From a virus, in IMG/VR virus record IMGVR_UViG_3300029448_000015, positions 8,477-72,476 of that record: 64,000 bases of DNA, one strand, 5' to 3'. Position numbers and translations under genes: made by a program. Each line of letters begins with the position of its first letter. The stretch's first letter is position 1. The notes below the pieces were generated by a model that saw only the letters and a program-made list of their open reading frames with translations, searched no databases and was not told where the DNA came from. Shown in pieces: positions 3,687-43,596 of the stretch.

Positions 3687-3896
3687 TTAAATCCTAGCTA
3701 TCCAATGAACTTTTGAAAGCTTTTGTTTTTTTAGTGCAGCAGAGTATTGCTCAAAATTAACATCTCTTGATTTTTCTGCTCTGCATTTCCGACACTCATA
3801 AAAAACTCCTGTAGTGAACTGTTCTATATCGTCACATTCACAAAATTTACATACGTACTTTTTTCTTTTTAAAGCTTTTTCTTTTTTAGAATTCAC
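3687..3896 (-). CDS. Small Cys-rich (zinc-ribbon-like) protein
   Basis: CKFCEC and CRKC pairs; fits the operon. Confidence 0.55.
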   Translation of the reverse strand: MNSKKEKALKRKKYVCKFCECDDIEQFTTGVFYECRKCRAEKSRDVNFEQYSAALKKQKLSKVHWIARI

Positions 3897-4767
3897 TGGC
3901 TAACACCTTAAAATTTTGTTCTTGTACTTTAGGTTCTTTAACTACTTTCGTTAAAAACACTGGGCCTCTAGCATAGTTAAAGACTCTTAAATTAGGGTAA
4001 CAATGATGTTTAAACTCACAATAAGAACACCCTATTGCTAATTTTCTATTTCCTAATTTACCTTCAGGGACATCTTCATAACAAAATTCTTTTGGTTCTG
4101 ATTTACTAACTACTCTTTTAATATGTTCAATCTGTTCTGCAATGTCTCCCTGAAGATTCTCATACATAGGATCTTTTTTATCTTTCAAGTCATGTTTTAA
4201 ATAAGTAATGTGTCCATTCTGTTTATCCATCGCTAACCAACCAAATTCAGTTTCATTCTCTGAATAGGCATAAGCTTTTATTTGTCCTATGTAACCAAAA
4301 GGATCGTCTTCAGCTACTTTTCTATCTTTAAATTTTTTAAAACCAAATACTGAAGCTGATTTAACGTCAGTTAAGACACCATCTATCTTACAGTCCATAG
4401 AACCCTGAACACCTCTAACTTCACAACGCTTTTGTTCATCAGTTACTTTATGTCCAGACATTCTAGTTAAAAACAAAAGCATTTCTTCTATGAGATGTCC
4501 GTACATAAATTTAAGTAAGGTGTAAGGCTGTAATTCTTCTGAAGGAGTTTCGTGGTATTTATTCCAAATGTATTTATCAGGTCTGCCAATTAAAGACATA
4601 CGGAGTTTTCTTTTATCTTTATTACGATCAACTAAAAATTGATTTCGCATTAACTCTTTAACTGATTCACCAAACAGTTCTATATTTTTTTCTATGTCTA
4701 TTTCATCAGAAGTTTCTTTTGTAGAAAGAAGACTGTATATGTCTTCTACTAATGTGTCTGTTCCCAT
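3886..4767 (-). CDS. PD-(D/E)XK (Cas4-like) exonuclease, set A
   Basis: GSMDCKIDG..DVKSAS, QIKAY, C-terminal CSYCEFKHHC; homologous to 40703-41551. Confidence 0.8.
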   Translation of the reverse strand: MGTDTLVEDIYSLLSTKETSDEIDIEKNIELFGESVKELMRNQFLVDRNKDKRKLRMSLIGRPDKYIWNKYHETPSEELQPYTLLKFMYGHLIEEMLLFLTRMSGHKVTDEQKRCEVRGVQGSMDCKIDGVLTDVKSASVFGFKKFKDRKVAEDDPFGYIGQIKAYAYSENETEFGWLAMDKQNGHITYLKHDLKDKKDPMYENLQGDIAEQIEHIKRVVSKSEPKEFCYEDVPEGKLGNRKLAIGCSYCEFKHHCYPNLRVFNYARGPVFLTKVVKEPKVQEQNFKVLASEF

Positions 4768-6473
4768 GAGTCCCCCACTTTATATTCTCCGTCCAATGGA
4801 CATTTTAAATTAAAACGATTACCTGCTGCTCTAATACAGCTAACTGCAAGCTTACCAAATTCTTCTGCTTTTTCTTCACTAACTTCAGATTGAATTTCAT
4901 CGTGTATATTACCAACAAATTTAAAATCTATTCCCCAAAGCTTTGCATATTCATCCAACAGTACCAAAGCTTTTTTCATTACTAATGCACCTGCTGATTG
5001 TAGTAATGTATTTAATGCTGAGTGTTCTGAGCGTACAAAAAGCTGTCTCCCGTCTAACCCTTTTAGTGTTCCCTTTGATCTGACCTTTTGTACAACTCTG
5101 TCTCTAAGCTCTTTAAGTGACGGGACACGATACAAAAATTGTTCTCTAAGAAATCTTCCATCCCCTTTGCTTCCTCCAACCACTGAACCAAGTCTTTCAT
5201 CTCCTGCTCCGTACAAGAAGGCATAGATAAAAGTTTTTGCTGTATCTCTTGATTTAAGTCCTGCAAGCTTTTGATTAAGGGAGTGTATATCTCCGTTAAT
5301 AATTTCATTAGTGTACCCTTCATTATTCATATAGTGGGCTAACATTCTCAGTTCTAAACCAGAGGCATCAACTCCGACTACTTTGTACCCTTCTTTAGCA
5401 ATCCAACAAGAACGACATTCTTTCCCGTAAGGTGAATAGACTGCGGGGACTTGAGCCATATTTGGTTTAGAATGAGTAAATCTGCCAGTAACTGCACCAT
5501 TAGTATTTACATACCCATGAACTCGATTGTCTTTATCTGCTACATCTAACCAACTTTGTACCTGCGCTTTTCTCTTTTGAATGGTAATGTATTCAGCAAT
5601 CAGTTTAGCTTCTGGTATATCAACATTAGCTAACGTAGATTCATCTACAATAGGGTGATTATTATCTGTAAATTTATCAGGTTCCCATCCTGCTTTTTGT
5701 AAACAAACTGCTATCTGTTGCCTAGAAGATAAATTAAAGGGGCGATATTCTATCCTGCAAAAGTCCCCAGAAACAGTCTGCCAATCGTCACCTAAGAACT
5801 TTAAACCTACCTTACTAAACTCATTAGTATTCTTTTTAATCTTTGGAGTAATGACTTTGATAAAAGTAAACATAGGTTTAAATGTTTTATGCACCTCATC
5901 TTCTATTGCGTATAGCTTCTCCTTAAATTCTGCTACTAAGGAAGTCGCTAAAGAGTGATCCAACAACCACCCATTGTTAATTTGTTCTTTAATTATGGAC
6001 TGTACTTTGTGTTCTAGCTCGATGGAATCAGGATTAAATTCCCTTAACTCTAATTCTAATTTTTTTAGAACTTGCTCTGTAACTGCGACATCTTGCTCAC
6101 AATATTTAATCATCTCACAAGATAATTTTTCCCATTCATTATGCGAACCTTTAGGAAAGTTTAGTCTTTCTCCCCAAGCACGTAAGCTATGCCCTCCTTC
6201 TCTGGATGGGTTTGCTAGTCGAGACAATACAAGACTGTCTAGTAATTGATAGGATGCCAGATCTACATTCCAAAGTTTCTGAAGAACAGGGAAATCAAAG
6301 GCAATGCCATTATGAGCAACAATAGTATCAACTTCGACAGTCGCTAAAGCAGCTTTAAATTCTGCTTCAGAATAAACTGTAGGAAATAGATTGGATGAAC
6401 AACACCATATTCTTGTAGGTGTCAGCCCATCAGTTTCTATGTCAAGAATTAATGTGTTTAGTAATAAGTTCAT
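4749..6473 (-). CDS. Family A DNA polymerase with 3'-5' exonuclease (T7 gp5-like), set A
   Basis: DIETDG, HNGIAFD, TGR, DASGLELRMLAHY, AKTFIYAFLYG, HDEIQ. Confidence 0.95.
   Translation of the reverse strand: MNLLLNTLILDIETDGLTPTRIWCCSSNLFPTVYSEAEFKAALATVEVDTIVAHNGIAFDFPVLQKLWNVDLASYQLLDSLVLSRLANPSREGGHSLRAWGERLNFPKGSHNEWEKLSCEMIKYCEQDVAVTEQVLKKLELELREFNPDSIELEHKVQSIIKEQINNGWLLDHSLATSLVAEFKEKLYAIEDEVHKTFKPMFTFIKVITPKIKKNTNEFSKVGLKFLGDDWQTVSGDFCRIEYRPFNLSSRQQIAVCLQKAGWEPDKFTDNNHPIVDESTLANVDIPEAKLIAEYITIQKRKAQVQSWLDVADKDNRVHGYVNTNGAVTGRFTHSKPNMAQVPAVYSPYGKECRSCWIAKEGYKVVGVDASGLELRMLAHYMNNEGYTNEIINGDIHSLNQKLAGLKSRDTAKTFIYAFLYGAGDERLGSVVGGSKGDGRFLREQFLYRVPSLKELRDRVVQKVRSKGTLKGLDGRQLFVRSEHSALNTLLQSAGALVMKKALVLLDEYAKLWGIDFKFVGNIHDEIQSEVSEEKAEEFGKLAVSCIRAAGNRFNLKCPLDGEYKVGDSWEQTH
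5063..5308 (-). CDS. Candidate nested +1-frame ORF (81 aa) inside polymerase A
   Basis: GAAGGG 7 nt before ATG; counterpart at the same position in polymerase B (42153-42404). Confidence 0.45.
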   Translation of the reverse strand: MKLLTEIYTPLIKSLQDLNQEIQQKLLSMPSCTEQEMKDLVQWLEEAKGMEDFLENNFCIVSRHLKSLETELYKRSDQREH

Positions 6474-7008
6474 TGATAGGGGTCAAGTCTCGAATTAGTA
6501 CGCCATAAGTATCATTTACAAATTTAAAAGAGAGTCTATTTGGATCTCGTTCTCCCTTCTCAAAAAAATCCGCTTGATTGTAAAAGTCTTCTTTTAGCAT
6601 AAACCCTAATAACCAACACTTCGTTAAATCCTTAGTGACTCTAGTAAACACATAAGCATCACAATTTTGTTGCGTATTAAAAGCAGATACTAAACAGTTG
6701 TAATGAGGCATAGGTTTAACATTTGTAACGGAAGATTTAACGTCTAATTTATTAATACTTTTTCCTTTTGAGTCTTCAACTTCTTCTATAAGAATGTCCC
6801 AATCATAACTATTGTTCCACTTTACAGATACTCTATTGTCTGCAAGATATTTATAAACGACTCCTTCCCCTATAAAACCATAAATGTTACCTGCACCTTC
6901 AGTAAGACTATTCTTTAATGTCCCCATTGTTTCAGATTTTTCTGAGGCAATGTCTATGATGTCCTGAGAAACAGTTACTTCTACAATGTCAGCAAGTTTA
7001 AAAGTCAT
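6442..7008 (-). CDS. Putative PD-(D/E)XK nuclease-fold protein between primase and polymerase
   Basis: GFIGE...YDWDIL...LDVKS spacing. Confidence 0.55.
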   Translation of the reverse strand: MTFKLADIVEVTVSQDIIDIASEKSETMGTLKNSLTEGAGNIYGFIGEGVVYKYLADNRVSVKWNNSYDWDILIEEVEDSKGKSINKLDVKSSVTNVKPMPHYNCLVSAFNTQQNCDAYVFTRVTKDLTKCWLLGFMLKEDFYNQADFFEKGERDPNRLSFKFVNDTYGVLIRDLTPINELITKHINS

Positions 7009-8656
7009 CTGAATTATCCCCAGTTGGTTTTTGTGTCTCCTGCATCCTACCTATTTCTTGATCGTACTTTAAGTAAGTCGCTGGCCCTGTTAAACCAGTG
7101 TATCTATTTTTTAATACTCTAACTGTTGTTACATTTCGTATATGTTCGGACTCATTTTGTTGATCTCGTTCTAATCCAATCACGATGTCCGATAACTGAG
7201 CAATAGCCTGAGATCCTCTTAGCTCACTAAGACTAATCCTACCTCCATCTTCATGCGCTGTTCCGTTAGATCGTCTTAAATGAGACACTAAAAACAATCC
7301 AATACCTAACTCCTGCACTAAAGATCTGAGTTTAGTCATAATGGCATCAATGTTCTTACGCTCATCTCCTCCTTCCTGCGAGGAAACAACAATAGATAAA
7401 TGATCTAAAACAATCCATTTGCACTCCAAAGCTTTAGCCATGTATCTAACGTGAGACATTAAACTGTCTTCATTAGTCGATCCCCAGTGATCTAGGAGAT
7501 AAAATCTGCCTGTTCCTAAAGTTGAATCCCAGTAAGGTTTAAAGTCTTCTGTATCTGTATCCTCGTCAAGATGAAGAGGTTTATTAGCAGCCATCGACAT
7601 GATACCCAGTGCTGTTCTAGTAATGGATTCCTCTAACGCCAATACACCAAGTTTATCTTCAGTCTCTGTAAAGAGATGGTGCTGTATTTCTCTAACCAAA
7701 TGAGACTTACCCATGCCACTACCTGAAGTAACAGTAACTAACTCAAAGGGTCTAATTCCTTTTGTTAATTTATTCAACCCTCCCCACGGATACGGGATAC
7801 TACTAATCTTTCTATCGCTAAGTAATGTGCTCCAAGTTTCTTCTCCTGCAATAATCCCGTCTGGGCGGTACTGTTTAGCAGCCCACCAACAACTAACAAA
7901 ATCCTTAATGCGATTCGCCATTAACATTTCGTTAGCGTCTTTCATTGGTAACGTACAGATCTTTAGTTTGTTGGGACTGAATAAATCTTTAACGGAATCT
8001 AGTGCGGTTTTCCCTGCTGAATCATTATCGAAACAAAGCACTACCTGTTCGTAGGATTCCTCCAACCATTTTAAATTCTCCTGCAATTCTTTCTTTGCTG
8101 CTTGCGCTCCATTGCGTAAAGAAACTACATCCCATTTCCTATCAAACATTTCACTAATAGAAAGTGCATCTAGTTCCCCTTCACAAATAGTTATAAATTT
8201 CCCTCCACCAACAGCGCAAGTCTGGTGTCCAAAGAGTCCTAAATCTCTGTTCTCTCCTGAAAAAGAAAATTGTTTATCCGCTACATAGCGAGTCTTAACT
8301 GCTAGTTCCTGTAGGGATTCTCTGGAATAGTAAGGGTAATGGTGTTTATGGATTTCACCTGTAGAGGAATACTCTACTCGTACATTAAATTTTCTACAGG
8401 TTTCTTCCGATACCCTACGTGTTTGGATTTCGGCTATAACTCCTGACATTTCGTTTTTTTCTCCTGCAAATCGTTGGTAATTCGTCTGTTTTGTTAGTTC
8501 CTCATTTGTTGCGGGTTCAAAATAATTGCAACCGGAGGAAAAACACCAAGCATGTCCATCACTATAACGTGCTAAGTTATTGGTGCTGTTACAGGACGGA
8601 CACGCCTCATGTCTAACAAACACACTCTCAGTGTTTGTTGACTCGTTCATTGGCAT
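6998..8656 (-). CDS. T7 gp4-like primase-helicase, set A
   Basis: Zn finger CPSC..WCFSSGC, TOPRIM EGELD and FDND, Walker A SGSGMGKS, DHL, LRGS, KNRYTG. Confidence 0.95.
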   Translation of the reverse strand: MPMNESTNTESVFVRHEACPSCNSTNNLARYSDGHAWCFSSGCNYFEPATNEELTKQTNYQRFAGEKNEMSGVIAEIQTRRVSEETCRKFNVRVEYSSTGEIHKHHYPYYSRESLQELAVKTRYVADKQFSFSGENRDLGLFGHQTCAVGGGKFITICEGELDALSISEMFDRKWDVVSLRNGAQAAKKELQENLKWLEESYEQVVLCFDNDSAGKTALDSVKDLFSPNKLKICTLPMKDANEMLMANRIKDFVSCWWAAKQYRPDGIIAGEETWSTLLSDRKISSIPYPWGGLNKLTKGIRPFELVTVTSGSGMGKSHLVREIQHHLFTETEDKLGVLALEESITRTALGIMSMAANKPLHLDEDTDTEDFKPYWDSTLGTGRFYLLDHWGSTNEDSLMSHVRYMAKALECKWIVLDHLSIVVSSQEGGDERKNIDAIMTKLRSLVQELGIGLFLVSHLRRSNGTAHEDGGRISLSELRGSQAIAQLSDIVIGLERDQQNESEHIRNVTTVRVLKNRYTGLTGPATYLKYDQEIGRMQETQKPTGDNSDDF

Positions 8657-41564: not shown

Positions 41565-41897
41565 TTATTTCTTGTGATGTTTTATAAAATGAAATCCTCC
41601 TTTTGCAGAGGGTCTTAATGCAACAACACCTAATTCTTTTTGTATCTCTGAGCGTTTCTTGGGCTTATAATTAGTTTTAACATCTATAAATTTAATTTCT
41701 CCTGTATCTGAAATAGCAATTAAATCTATAGGGCCAGTACATTCACTGTTTTTAAATACTTTAAAATTATTTTCTATTAACCATATAACAGCTTTATACT
41801 CAGTAATATCTCCTATAGAGCAAGTAGATAGTTTACTTGAAGGTTCAGTAATCTTAGTGAGTTTCACTCCAGTTTTTCCCAACCTTATACTCCCCAT
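41565..41897 (-). CDS. Small PD-(D/E)XK endonuclease-like protein
   Basis: GDITEYKAV...GPIDLIAI...IDVKT. Confidence 0.65.
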   Translation of the reverse strand: MGSIRLGKTGVKLTKITEPSSKLSTCSIGDITEYKAVIWLIENNFKVFKNSECTGPIDLIAISDTGEIKFIDVKTNYKPKKRSEIQKELGVVALRPSAKGGFHFIKHHKK

Positions 41898-43596
41898 CTA
41901 AAGGACATCTAAGCTTTAAAAGCTCACCTGCTTGTATAATACATTCTACTCCTAACTTACCTACAGTATCAGCCATATCTTCTTTTACTTCTATTTGCCA
42001 TTCATCATGAACATTAGCTACAAAATGAGCATCTATATTATGTAACTTTTCATTTAAAAGAATTAAAGCTTTCTTCATTACAATAGAACCTGCTCCCTGT
42101 AGTAAAGTATTCAAAGCTGAATGTTCACTTCTAATTATTAACTTGCGTCCATCTAATGCTTTAATGAATCCTTTCCGTGCTTCTCTGCTAACTCTTGTTT
42201 TAAGATCATTGAATGATGGGAGATTATTAATAAATGATTTTCTAAGGTGTGCACCAGTACGTTTAGTTCCTCCGAGAATCTCCCCAAGTCTTGAATCTCC
42301 TGCTCCGTAGAGTAATGCATAGATGAAAGTCTTTGCCTGATTTCTTGATTCAAGCCCTGCAAGTCTTTGATTAGTGGAGTGTATGTCTCCATTAACGATT
42401 TCATTTACATACTCCTCATCATTCATGTAGTGAGCTAACATTCTTAATTCTAATCCACTAGCGTCTACACCAACTAATTTATAATTAGGTTTAACAATCC
42501 AACAAGATCTACATTCTTTACCATACTTACTATACACACTAGGAGTTTGTGCTAGGTTAGGATTTCTATGGGTCATCCTACCAGTAATAGTTCCATTATG
42601 ATTTACAAACCCTCTAACTCTATTATCATCTTCTACATCAGATAACCAAGAATCTACTTGGGCTATTCTTTTTTGGAGCATTAAAAACTCAGCTAATATT
42701 TTAGCTTCTTTAATATTTTTAATAGATGCTAATATTTTTTCATCTACTTTAGCTTGTCCGGTAGGCGTAAATTCTTTTGGTTTCCATCCTAAATCTTGTA
42801 GACGTTCACCAATTTGTTTTCGTGAACCGGGATTAAATTCTGTTTCTATTACTCTCGTAATAAAAGTTTGTTGTTCAATTAAATTAAATTCTTTATCTGT
42901 TAATCGTACATTAGTACCATAATTAGTCTTACCTGTTTTTAATAACTTTTTAAGTTTATTATGGCGTGGGAATATTTTTAATACTTCTTTAGCAGGTAAA
43001 AATACTTTTCTTATTTGTCTTTGAATCTCACTCATTCTTTCATTTAAAGTAGCAACTAACTTCATAGCTTCTTCTATGTTAAAAAGAAAACCATAGTTTC
43101 TTTGTTCATTCATAATCTTAGCTACTGCGTGCTCTATCTCAACACTTTGTCGAGAGAACCCTAGAGATTCTTGCTTTAATCTTTCATAGACTTTGTAATT
43201 CAATAAGACATCTTGTTCGCAATACTTCAGCATATCAGGAGTAAACTTACTGTATTCATGAAAATCTATTTTGTGACTCTTTAATATATACCCCCATCTT
43301 TCTAACCCATGTCCCCCTTCTCTTACTGGATTAAAAAGACGGGATAAAACTAATGTATCTACTATTATTTTATTTGATAAATCTATAGAGGTAAGATTTT
43401 TTATTACAGGTATATCATATCCTATAATGTTATGACCAATTAAAGTACCTGCCTCCATTAAAGCAGAAAGCCCTTGTTCTAATTCAGAAGGGCCATAAGA
43501 TTTTTGTTCTTGAGTAGAGGTGTCTAAAATAGAAAGACACCAAAGTTTAGTAGCTTCTATGCCATCTGTTTCTATATCAAATACTAAAGATTTCAT
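41854..43596 (-). CDS. Family A DNA polymerase, set B
   Basis: FDIETDG, HNIIGYD, TGR, DASGLELRMLAHY, AKTFIYALLYG, HDEWQ. Confidence 0.95.
   Translation of the reverse strand: MKSLVFDIETDGIEATKLWCLSILDTSTQEQKSYGPSELEQGLSALMEAGTLIGHNIIGYDIPVIKNLTSIDLSNKIIVDTLVLSRLFNPVREGGHGLERWGYILKSHKIDFHEYSKFTPDMLKYCEQDVLLNYKVYERLKQESLGFSRQSVEIEHAVAKIMNEQRNYGFLFNIEEAMKLVATLNERMSEIQRQIRKVFLPAKEVLKIFPRHNKLKKLLKTGKTNYGTNVRLTDKEFNLIEQQTFITRVIETEFNPGSRKQIGERLQDLGWKPKEFTPTGQAKVDEKILASIKNIKEAKILAEFLMLQKRIAQVDSWLSDVEDDNRVRGFVNHNGTITGRMTHRNPNLAQTPSVYSKYGKECRSCWIVKPNYKLVGVDASGLELRMLAHYMNDEEYVNEIVNGDIHSTNQRLAGLESRNQAKTFIYALLYGAGDSRLGEILGGTKRTGAHLRKSFINNLPSFNDLKTRVSREARKGFIKALDGRKLIIRSEHSALNTLLQGAGSIVMKKALILLNEKLHNIDAHFVANVHDEWQIEVKEDMADTVGKLGVECIIQAGELLKLRCPLDGEYKVGKNWSETH
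42153..42404 (-). CDS. Candidate nested +1-frame ORF (83 aa) inside polymerase B
   Basis: GAGGAG 7 nt before ATG; counterpart in polymerase A. Confidence 0.5.
   Translation of the reverse strand: MKSLMETYTPLIKDLQGLNQEIRQRLSSMHYSTEQEIQDLGRFSEELNVLVHTLENHLLIISHHSMILKQELAEKHGKDSLKH

What the first reader, a model, noticed from the sequence alone, without database searches (positions are those of the whole stretch)
5063..5321. Nested +1-frame ORF inside DNA polymerase A
Seen: an 81-codon ORF (MKLLTEIYTPLIKSLQDLNQEIQQKL...) overlapping the polymerase motif B region, with GAAGGG 7 nt before its ATG. Start and stop align, within two codons, with the nested ORF in polymerase B. Inference: a conserved overprinted helical protein. 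Some similarity between the two products is forced by the polymerase frame, so the evidence is the open frame and the SD.
Basis: partly seen in the sequence, partly recalled or inferred. Interest (0 to 1): 0.7.

Follow-up and report, generated by a model that had tools for sequence, protein, structure and literature searches.

The report
Hidden gene inside phage DNA polymerase

Summary
ATG 5308..5306 opens an 81-codon +1-frame ORF that ends at TAA 5065..5063. It lies inside the family-A DNA polymerase gene (4749..6473, -), with GAAGGG 7 nt upstream.

It is far more than chance:
- With the polymerase protein and codon usage held fixed, 6.4 +1 stops are expected here. 0 of 400 shuffles were open.
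- 138 of 157 homologous polymerase genes, many only about 50% identical, have no +1 stop in the aligned interval.
- Codons that would create a +1 stop make up 1 of 777 at-risk sites inside the interval and 48% outside it.
- The ATG (86 of 87) and a GAGG/AGGA Shine-Dalgarno 7-9 nt upstream (85 of 87) are conserved.
- Synonymous change is halved in 32 of 33 independent close pairs.
- The +1 product is 51% identical between distant pairs, against 27% forced by the polymerase frame.
- No other frame is open, and no RNA structure was found.

The product is an orphan and is predicted to be a helical hairpin (pLDDT 91.6). Cultured Pelagibacter phages HTVC104P and HTVC115P carry an unannotated equivalent.

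Verdict: a real overprinted gene whose function is unknown. It is a new member of a known kind. An overlapping report on the polymerase B copy exists in this scan.

The parts
5063..5308 (-). Nested +1-frame gene in polymerase A: ATG 5308..5306, 81 codons, stop TAA 5065..5063
   Evidence: Open in 0 of 400 codon shuffles. Homologous ORF intact in 138 of 157 relatives.
5316..5321 (-). Shine-Dalgarno-like GAAGGG, 7 nt before the ATG at 5308
   Evidence: The equivalent GAGG/AGGA/AAGGAG core sits at 7-9 nt spacing in 85 of 87 focal relatives, against 61% of shuffles. The codon supplying it is GAG or AAG in 82 of 87, although GAA and AAA are the commoner synonyms gene-wide.
5321..5323 (-). Upstream in-frame ATG (would give 86 aa); probably not the start
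   Evidence: No SD upstream. Not conserved: in polymerase B and in L112, L114, L138 and L155 a +1 stop lies directly before the shared ATG.
4749..6473 (-). Host gene: family-A DNA polymerase A (574 aa), 3'-5' exonuclease plus polymerase domains
   Evidence: Pfam PF00476 E 2.3e-51. Best cultured relatives are Pelagibacter phages HTVC104P, HTVC103P and HTVC115P at 47-48% identity.
42153..42404 (-). Homologous nested +1-frame gene in polymerase B (83 codons plus stop)
   Evidence: Its ATG is in the same alignment column as the ATG at 5308. Open in 0 of 400 shuffles.
42412..42417 (-). Shine-Dalgarno GAGGAG, 7 nt before the ATG of the polymerase B nested gene
41854..43596 (-). Host gene: family-A DNA polymerase B (580 aa), 50% identical to A

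Best explanation
This is a real protein-coding gene created by overprinting. The family-A DNA polymerase frame is the old one. A second, younger reading frame, shifted by +1, lies wholly inside it across the fingers region (DIH motif, motif B/O helix and the helices that follow).

Shown here: the +1 frame, its ATG and its Shine-Dalgarno are kept by purifying selection in many very divergent phages. That selection also suppresses synonymous change in the polymerase.

Inferred mechanism: ribosomes start internally on the polymerase mRNA at the SD-N7-ATG and make an 80-97-residue, mildly acidic two-helix hairpin. The protein would therefore appear together with the replication proteins.

Inferred function, with low confidence: the hairpin acts by binding another protein. 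About 40%: a host-directed accessory factor of the kind that T7-like phages encode as small genes next to their polymerase gene. About 25%: an accessory of the phage replisome. The rest: something else.

The confidence given is for 'real, selected, translated overlapping gene', not for the function.
For: 1. Open frame beyond what the polymerase forces. Codon shuffles that keep each protein and its codon usage predict a mean of 4.05 +1 stops in the interval, with a median P(no stop) of 0.005 and a maximum of 0.09. Observed: 138 of 157 genes have none. The null is validated by the 17 genes that do carry stops: 5.35 observed against 5.87 expected.

2. At sites where a synonymous codon would create a +1 stop, such codons are used at 1 of 777 sites inside the interval. 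Outside it the share is 3152 of 6561, and directly downstream it is 201 of 400. In the closed lineages the share inside is at background, 83 of 193.

3. Only the +1 frame is open. The +2 frame and the three antisense frames average 3.4-9.8 stops, and 0 of 87 genes are open in any of them. In a sliding scan the interval is the only 80-codon window open in most genes: 133 of 157, with the next best at 52.

4. Start signals. xAT|G is kept in 86 of 87 although the polymerase residue varies among N, Y, D and H and the gene-wide AAT share is 0.55. An SD core at 7-9 nt is present in 85 of 87.

5. Synonymous constraint. Codon identity at conserved residues is 1.49 times expectation inside and 1.07 outside. 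Third-position identity is 0.64 inside and 0.38-0.41 outside. In 33 non-overlapping close pairs, synonymous differences are 0.168 inside and 0.357 outside, and 32 of 33 pairs are lower inside.

6. Protein-level conservation of the +1 product. Identity is 0.51 against 0.27 in shuffles. Control regions with equal polymerase conservation give 0.28-0.32 against 0.26-0.29. Several nested residues are more conserved than the polymerase residue that shares their codons, for example His64 at 0.99 against Ser at 0.67.

7. Breadth. There are 18 open lineages that are mutually 65% identical or less. Cultured phages HTVC104P and HTVC115P are open, while five other cultured relatives are closed.

8. Structure. 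A confident helical-hairpin model, pLDDT 91.6.
Against: - There is no direct evidence of translation (no Ribo-seq, no proteomics).
- The relatives are phylogenetically related and were retrieved with peptide patterns taken from the two window polymerases, so the counts are not independent events. I count 18 mutually distant lineages and 33 independent pairs.
- The N-terminal half of the product overlaps the most conserved polymerase motifs, so part of its conservation is forced (0.34 expected against 0.63 observed).
- About a tenth of relatives carry stops here: 17 of 157 have two or more. The gene is therefore dispensable in some lineages.
- The function is unsupported. There is no Pfam, PHROG, NCBIfam or PDB sequence match, and fold matches are generic coiled-coil hairpins with Z of 8 or less.
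- In the two more distant open clades (L011-L055 and L057-L080) the product is longer, very basic and only weakly conserved (0.33 against 0.25, and 0.28 against 0.22). Whether it is the same protein there is open.
Confidence: 0.88

Rival explanations
1. The +1 frame is reached by programmed +1 ribosomal frameshifting. This would give a truncated polymerase (exonuclease domain plus part of the polymerase domain) with an alternative helical C-terminus, rather than an independent small protein.
For: The frame is open and conserved, which a frameshift product would also require. Four database proteins are polymerase/nested-frame chimeras (P0127, P0138, P0168, P0136).
Against: The ATG (86 of 87) and an SD at the correct spacing (85 of 87) are conserved through synonymous choices in the polymerase, which a frameshift would not need. 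A +1 stop lies 1-7 codons upstream of the ATG in nearly all genes. The chimeras switch frame at different places and in both directions and are single records, as expected of indel errors. I did not search for a conserved shift site.
Confidence: 0.04
2. The ORF is translated and kept open, but the peptide itself does nothing. The act of internal initiation or translation would tune polymerase expression, as a regulatory overlapping ORF.
For: The start signals and the open frame are conserved. No function or partner could be assigned.
Against: The amino-acid sequence of the product is conserved well beyond the forced level over its whole length, including the C-terminal half (0.45 against 0.23). 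Single residues are more conserved than the polymerase residues they overlap. The alignment yields a confident fold. A purely regulatory ORF would not need any of this, nor a conserved length of 80-89 codons.
Confidence: 0.04
3. The synonymous constraint comes from a non-coding element in the DNA or mRNA (an RNA structure, internal promoter, origin or packaging signal), and the open frame is a by-product.
For: Third positions are conserved, which any embedded element would cause. One weak promoter-like match lies at 5351..5322.
Against: Stop avoidance is specific to one of five alternative frames and is absolute at at-risk sites (1 of 777). No Rfam family matches. The RNA folds no better than shuffles (z +1.09, 171 of 200 shuffles fold at least as well). 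Promoter-like matches are fewer than in shuffles (2 against 5.9). The constraint starts and ends at the ORF boundaries.
Confidence: 0.02
4. Chance plus inheritance: an accidentally open frame in a conserved stretch, inherited from one ancestor or spread by recombination of this polymerase segment, without selection.
For: Single off-frame ORFs of this length occur elsewhere in the window (for example 5974..6249 + at 91 aa and 7713..8054 + at 113 aa). The relatives share ancestry.
Against: Distant pairs differ at 36% of third positions inside the interval, yet no stop has arisen in 86 of 87 focal genes. Lineages that did acquire stops sit at the neutral expectation. 32 of 33 independent pairs show slower synonymous change inside.
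Confidence: 0.02

Closest known systems
Lambda Rz1 embedded in the +1 register of Rz, and phiX174 genes E in D and B in A (recalled from general knowledge; no paper was read for this)
   Same: A complete small gene with its own start signal lies on the same strand, wholly inside a larger phage gene, in another frame. It arose by overprinting.
   Different: Those are lysis or morphogenesis genes in small or compact genomes, and they are experimentally proven. Here the host gene is the catalytic core of a replicative polymerase, the product is a soluble helical hairpin of unknown role, and translation is not shown.
T7 small ORFs 4.1 and 4.2 overlapping the primase-helicase gene 4, and the small class II genes 5.5, 5.7 and 5.9 next to polymerase gene 5
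   Same: Small accessory proteins are encoded within or beside the replication genes of a T7-like podophage and are expressed with them. Several of the T7 proteins act on host proteins.
   Different: There is no sequence or fold similarity. The net charge (median -2, pI 5.8) is not that of a strongly acidic DNA mimic. T7 gene 5 itself is not known to hold a nested gene.
Hidden 135-aa gene overprinted on the exonuclease domain of a phage DNA polymerase
   Same: An out-of-frame ORF inside a phage DNA polymerase gene is kept open, with its start signal, in about a hundred relatives.
   Different: It lies in a different domain (exonuclease, not fingers/motif B), has a different length and is in another genome. 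I did not test it. P0002 found no look-alike among earlier findings.
Inteins in phage DNA polymerase genes with an out-of-frame homing endonuclease
   Same: Dual coding inside a phage polymerase gene.
   Different: Here there is no intein and no nuclease. The overlapped polymerase segment is the conserved catalytic sequence itself (invariant R409, K413, Y417, Y421, G422), not an insert.

Membership tests
Same-strand overprinted (nested) protein-coding gene | The alternative frame is open for longer than the host protein and its codon usage allow | tested here: met
   0 of 400 shuffles were open for either window gene. 138 of 157 relatives are open, against a median P of 0.005. Unsafe codons: 1 of 777 sites against 48%.
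Same-strand overprinted (nested) protein-coding gene | Own conserved start codon and ribosome-binding site | tested here: met
   ATG in 86 of 87. SD core at 7-9 nt in 85 of 87, against 61% of shuffles.
Same-strand overprinted (nested) protein-coding gene | Reduced synonymous variation of the host gene, confined to the overlap | tested here: met
   The effect begins and ends at the ORF.
Same-strand overprinted (nested) protein-coding gene | Amino-acid conservation of the second product beyond what the host frame forces | tested here: met
   0.51 observed against 0.27 forced. Control regions show no excess. Per-residue table.
Same-strand overprinted (nested) protein-coding gene | The product is made in infected cells | not testable with these tools
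   No Ribo-seq or proteome of these phages was at hand.
Programmed +1 frameshift product | A conserved shift site and no need for an internal start | tested here: inconclusive
   An internal ATG and SD are conserved, which argues against this. A shift site was not searched for.
Family-A DNA polymerase (the host gene) | Pfam DNA_pol_A domain with motif A, motif B and motif C residues | tested here: met
   PF00476 E 2.3e-51. Invariant D369, R409, K413, Y417, Y421, H524 and D525 in a 54-sequence alignment. The motif names are from my own knowledge.
Acidic DNA-mimic inhibitors (T7 gp5.9 / Ocr / lambda Gam type) | Strongly acidic surface, and a fold or sequence match to a known member | tested here: inconclusive
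   Net charge median -2 (range -6 to +2) and pI median 5.8. No such protein appears among the fold-search rows, which does not exclude one.

The most novel reading that the evidence does not exclude
The nested gene is an ancient, de novo-born partner of the polymerase. It would have arisen once, before the split of all three open clades (polymerases under 50% identical, including the cultured SAR11 phages HTVC104P and HTVC115P). It has since co-evolved with the O-helix region and been lost repeatedly. Its product would work with the replisome, so the same DNA would encode an enzyme and its own regulator or subunit. One consequence is that the codon of the O-helix tyrosine (Tyr417, which I take from memory to be the equivalent of E. 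coli Pol I position 762, used in marine viral ecology as a biochemical marker) is locked by nested Met29.
Probability: 0.15. Interest if true: 0.85.

Novelty: new member of a known kind. Interest (0 to 1): 0.7.

Why it matters
1. It adds an unannotated protein family to a polymerase lineage that is abundant in marine viromes. A search with polymerase B found at least 598 IMG/VR stretches that encode a relative. 128 clusters at 50% identity match the nested protein profile. The GenBank records of HTVC104P and HTVC115P annotate only 'DNA polymerase' there.

2. It shows that even the catalytic core of an essential enzyme can carry a second gene. This gives a clean natural system for gene birth and loss, because the ancestral frame is certain, there are open and closed sister lineages, and polymerase-synonymous knock-outs are possible.

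3. The polymerase gene is used as a marker in viral ecology. Over about 250 nt its synonymous sites are not neutral, which biases rates, dN/dS and trees built from this segment.

4. Standard gene callers and annotators miss such genes.

Tried and rejected
Function and partner leads:
- Function by homology: Pfam, PHROGs and NCBIfam gave only sub-threshold hits. A PDB sequence profile search gave nothing below E 0.37.
- Fold searches: Foldseek against the PDB gave 0 matches and BFVD gave nothing below E 6.8. VIA-align wide gave a best Z of 8.0 (cohesin coiled coil) among generic helical hairpins, which is within the range the tool calls uninformative. The ESM Atlas gave one lead at 0.76, an unnamed cluster that is half viral and below the tool's own threshold.
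- Binding to its own polymerase: complex prediction with alignments A2 and A1 returned 'no answer' (score 0.00). This is neither support nor evidence against.
- Free-standing copy: an hmmsearch of the A1 profile against all six-frame ORFs of the window and 168 loci found exactly two hits in the window (the two nested ORFs). It found no second hit in any locus. Flanks were only about 1.5 kb.

Gene context and literature:
I therefore could not confirm that each of the 117 or 128 proteins lies inside a polymerase gene. Their lengths, and the near-identity of P0170 to the HTVC115P ORF, suggest that they do. The listing of cluster members gave no names.
- Literature: four full-text searches listed no paper describing a gene nested in a phage family-A polymerase. 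I saw only listings and the beginnings of abstracts. In the pelagiphage preprint 10.1101/2019.12.14.876532 I read 'find' passages only: 'overlap' and 'nested' occur 0 times. Its supplementary annotation tables were not seen and could list the ORF.

Other checks:
- RNA explanations: no Rfam match and no excess folding stability.
- Rows dropped: of the 160 loci, 5 were left out because the polymerase ORF was cut by the contig end or was shorter than 540 codons (L015, L063, L075, L139, L151). Each related-loci run kept the best 80 of 113 and of at least 598 confirmed stretches.
Full report
**What is there.**
- The finding's coordinates hold an ORF on the minus strand. ATG 5308..5306 is followed by 81 sense codons and TAA at 5065..5063.
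- GAAGGG lies at 5321..5316, 7 nt before the ATG. A second in-frame ATG at 5323..5321 would add five residues, but it has no ribosome-binding site.
- The ORF is in the +1 frame of a 574-residue family-A DNA polymerase gene, 4749..6473 (-) (PF00476, E 2.3e-51).
- That gene sits in a phage replication module between a primase-helicase (6998..8656) and a Cas4-domain exonuclease (3886..4767).
- The overlapped polymerase residues, about 389-470, include the DIH motif and motif B (R409, K413, Y417, Y421, G422; these are invariant).
- A second, 50%-identical polymerase gene (41854..43596 -) holds an 83-codon +1 ORF at 42153..42404, preceded by GAGGAG-N7. The two ATGs fall in the same alignment column and the stops are three columns apart.

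**Is it more than chance?** A single off-frame ORF of this length is not rare in the window, so I tested it against relatives.
- Two scans of IMG/VR with the two polymerases gave 160 loci. I used 155 of them. Five had cut or short polymerase ORFs and were dropped (L015, L063, L075, L139, L151). With the two window genes this makes 157 sequences, aligned as protein and threaded back to codons.
- In the aligned interval, 138 of 157 genes have no +1 stop, although each gene carries about 30-70 +1 stops overall.
- I shuffled synonymous codons within each gene, which keeps the protein and the codon usage. This predicts a mean of 4.05 stops in the interval (6.4 for polymerase A, 5.5 for polymerase B), with a median probability of no stop of 0.005 and a maximum of 0.09.
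- The same null fits the 17 genes that do carry two or more stops: 5.35 observed against 5.87 expected.
- At sites where some synonymous codon would make a +1 stop, that codon is used at 1 of 777 sites inside the interval in the 87-gene focal clade. The share is 3152 of 6561 elsewhere and 201 of 400 in the 28 columns just downstream. In the closed lineages the inside share is at background, 83 of 193.
- The +2 frame and all three antisense frames carry 3.4-9.8 stops on average and are never open (0 of 87).
- In a sliding scan, the interval is the only 80-codon window open in most genes: 133 of 157, with the next best at 52, in a gap-rich region where those genes have only 55-56 codons.

**Start signals.**
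- The ATG is present in 86 of 87 focal genes. The polymerase codon that supplies its A and T is AAT, TAT, GAT or CAT, so the polymerase residue varies (N, Y, D, H) while the T-ending codon is always used. Gene-wide, AAT makes up only 0.55 of Asn codons.
- Three codons upstream, the polymerase uses GAG or AAG in 82 of 87 genes and GAA or AAA in 3, although GAA (0.59) and AAA (0.52) are the commoner synonyms. This produces GAGG, AGGA or AAGGAG at 7-9 nt from the ATG in 85 of 87 genes, against 61% of shuffles.
- A +1 stop forced by the polymerase's conserved Met codon lies 1-7 codons upstream of the ATG in almost all genes, so the frame cannot start earlier.

**Constraint on the polymerase.**
- Among distant focal pairs (62% polymerase identity or less), third-position identity is 0.64 inside the interval and 0.38-0.41 elsewhere.
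- Codon identity at conserved residues is 1.49 times expectation inside and 1.07 outside, with the peak exactly over the ORF.
- In 33 non-overlapping close pairs, synonymous differences are 0.168 inside and 0.357 outside, and 32 of 33 pairs are lower inside. For polymerase A against L002 the counts are 4 of 74 against 108 of 419. For polymerase B against L081 they are 11 of 68 against 161 of 419.

**The product.**
- Between distant pairs the +1 translation is 0.51 identical, against 0.27 when synonymous codons are shuffled. Three control regions with the same polymerase conservation give 0.28-0.32 against 0.26-0.29.
- The excess holds in the C-terminal half, which overlaps a variable part of the polymerase (0.45 against 0.23).
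- Some nested residues are more conserved than the polymerase residues that share their codons: His64 0.99 against Ser 0.67, Asn56 0.83 against Gln 0.52, and Glu46 0.93 against Gly 0.73.
- Nested Met29 is built from the TAT codon of the O-helix Tyr417 plus the first base of Ala418. TAT is used in 98% of genes, against a gene-wide share of 0.59.
- The proteins are 80-97 residues long and mildly acidic (median pI 5.8, net charge -2).
- AlphaFold2 on a 54-sequence alignment (A1) gives helices 2-31 and 34-80 with pLDDT 91.6.
- Nothing specific matches the protein by sequence or fold.
- A test for binding to the polymerase gave no answer.

**Distribution.**
- The ORF is intact in 18 lineages that are mutually 65% identical or less in the polymerase.
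- On a FastTree of the polymerases, the closed genes form five small clades. At least one of them (L056, L061, L069) is nested among open ones, which looks like loss.
- Two genes with a stop just after the usual ATG (L010, L142) keep the frame from a Met four codons downstream.
- Two more distant clades (L011-L055, 39 genes; L057-L080, 14 genes) are also free of stops (0 of 351 and 0 of 138 unsafe codons). Their product is longer, very basic and only weakly conserved, so I leave open whether it is the same protein.
- Among cultured phages, Pelagibacter phages HTVC115P (107 codons) and HTVC104P (99 codons) are open from the same ATG, with AAGGAG or AAGGA upstream. Their GenBank records annotate only the polymerase there.
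- Slicky01, CRP-143, MedDCM-S45-C18, LUZ100 and RsoP1EGY carry 2-4 stops.
- Gene callers have predicted unnamed proteins of this kind: 117 in one database, and 128 clusters at 50% identity in another.
- Four longer hits switch between the polymerase frame and the nested frame, at different points and in both directions. I read these as indel artefacts.
- No free-standing copy was found in the window or in the flanks of any locus.

**Rivals.**
- An RNA or DNA element would not spare one frame only. In addition, no Rfam family, no excess folding stability (z +1.09) and no excess of promoter-like sites were found.
- Frameshifting does not explain the conserved ATG and SD.
- Inheritance without selection is contradicted by the 36% third-position divergence without a single new stop, and by the neutral behaviour of the closed lineages.

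**What is known.**
- Four full-text searches (listings only) and 'find' passages of the pelagiphage preprint turned up no description of this gene.
- That preprint places HTVC103P-type polymerases in an abundant marine 'clade I'.
They also hold notes that the window is a contig joining two podophage genomes (e1-6187720, e1-6187711).
- The comparisons with Rz1, phiX174, the T7 small genes and the '762' marker position are from my own knowledge and were not checked here.

**Verdict.** This is a real, selected, very probably translated overprinted gene. It is a new member of a known kind and its function is unknown.

Noticed in passing
Loci L014-L053 (27 of them), polymerase alignment columns about 60-179: In one clade of relatives (GC 42-45%) the +2 frame of the polymerase exonuclease domain is open for 81-100 codons and gives a shared product. 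It is not present in the window's own polymerases. The clade is closely related, so this may be inheritance only.
   Followed up: no
Loci L011-L055 and L057-L080, polymerase alignment columns 554-686: These clades keep the +1 frame open for 95-131 codons, running past the end of the window-type gene, with a very basic product. Unsafe codons are also depleted in the extension (37 of 179 and 11 of 49, against 0.42 and 0.39 background).
   Followed up: partly
window 1-64000: The window holds two colinear sets of podophage genes: two polymerases, two primase-helicases and two Cas4-domain exonucleases.
   Followed up: partly
window 5063-5100 (-) compared with L001-L005: The polymerase A nested ORF ends three codons earlier, and with a different C-terminal tail, than in its 87-89%-identical relatives L001-L005. 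The last dozen or so residues appear free to vary.
   Followed up: no
Proteins P0127, P0138, P0168, P0136: These database proteins begin in the polymerase frame and end in the nested frame, or the reverse. They are probably indel errors in metagenome assemblies, but I could not inspect their contigs.
   Followed up: partly
L166 (Pseudomonas phage LUZ100) 1365-1464: The GenBank record annotates a transcription terminator (T10) inside the polymerase gene of this distant relative, in the region equivalent to the nested gene. That phage has 3 +1 stops there.
   Followed up: no
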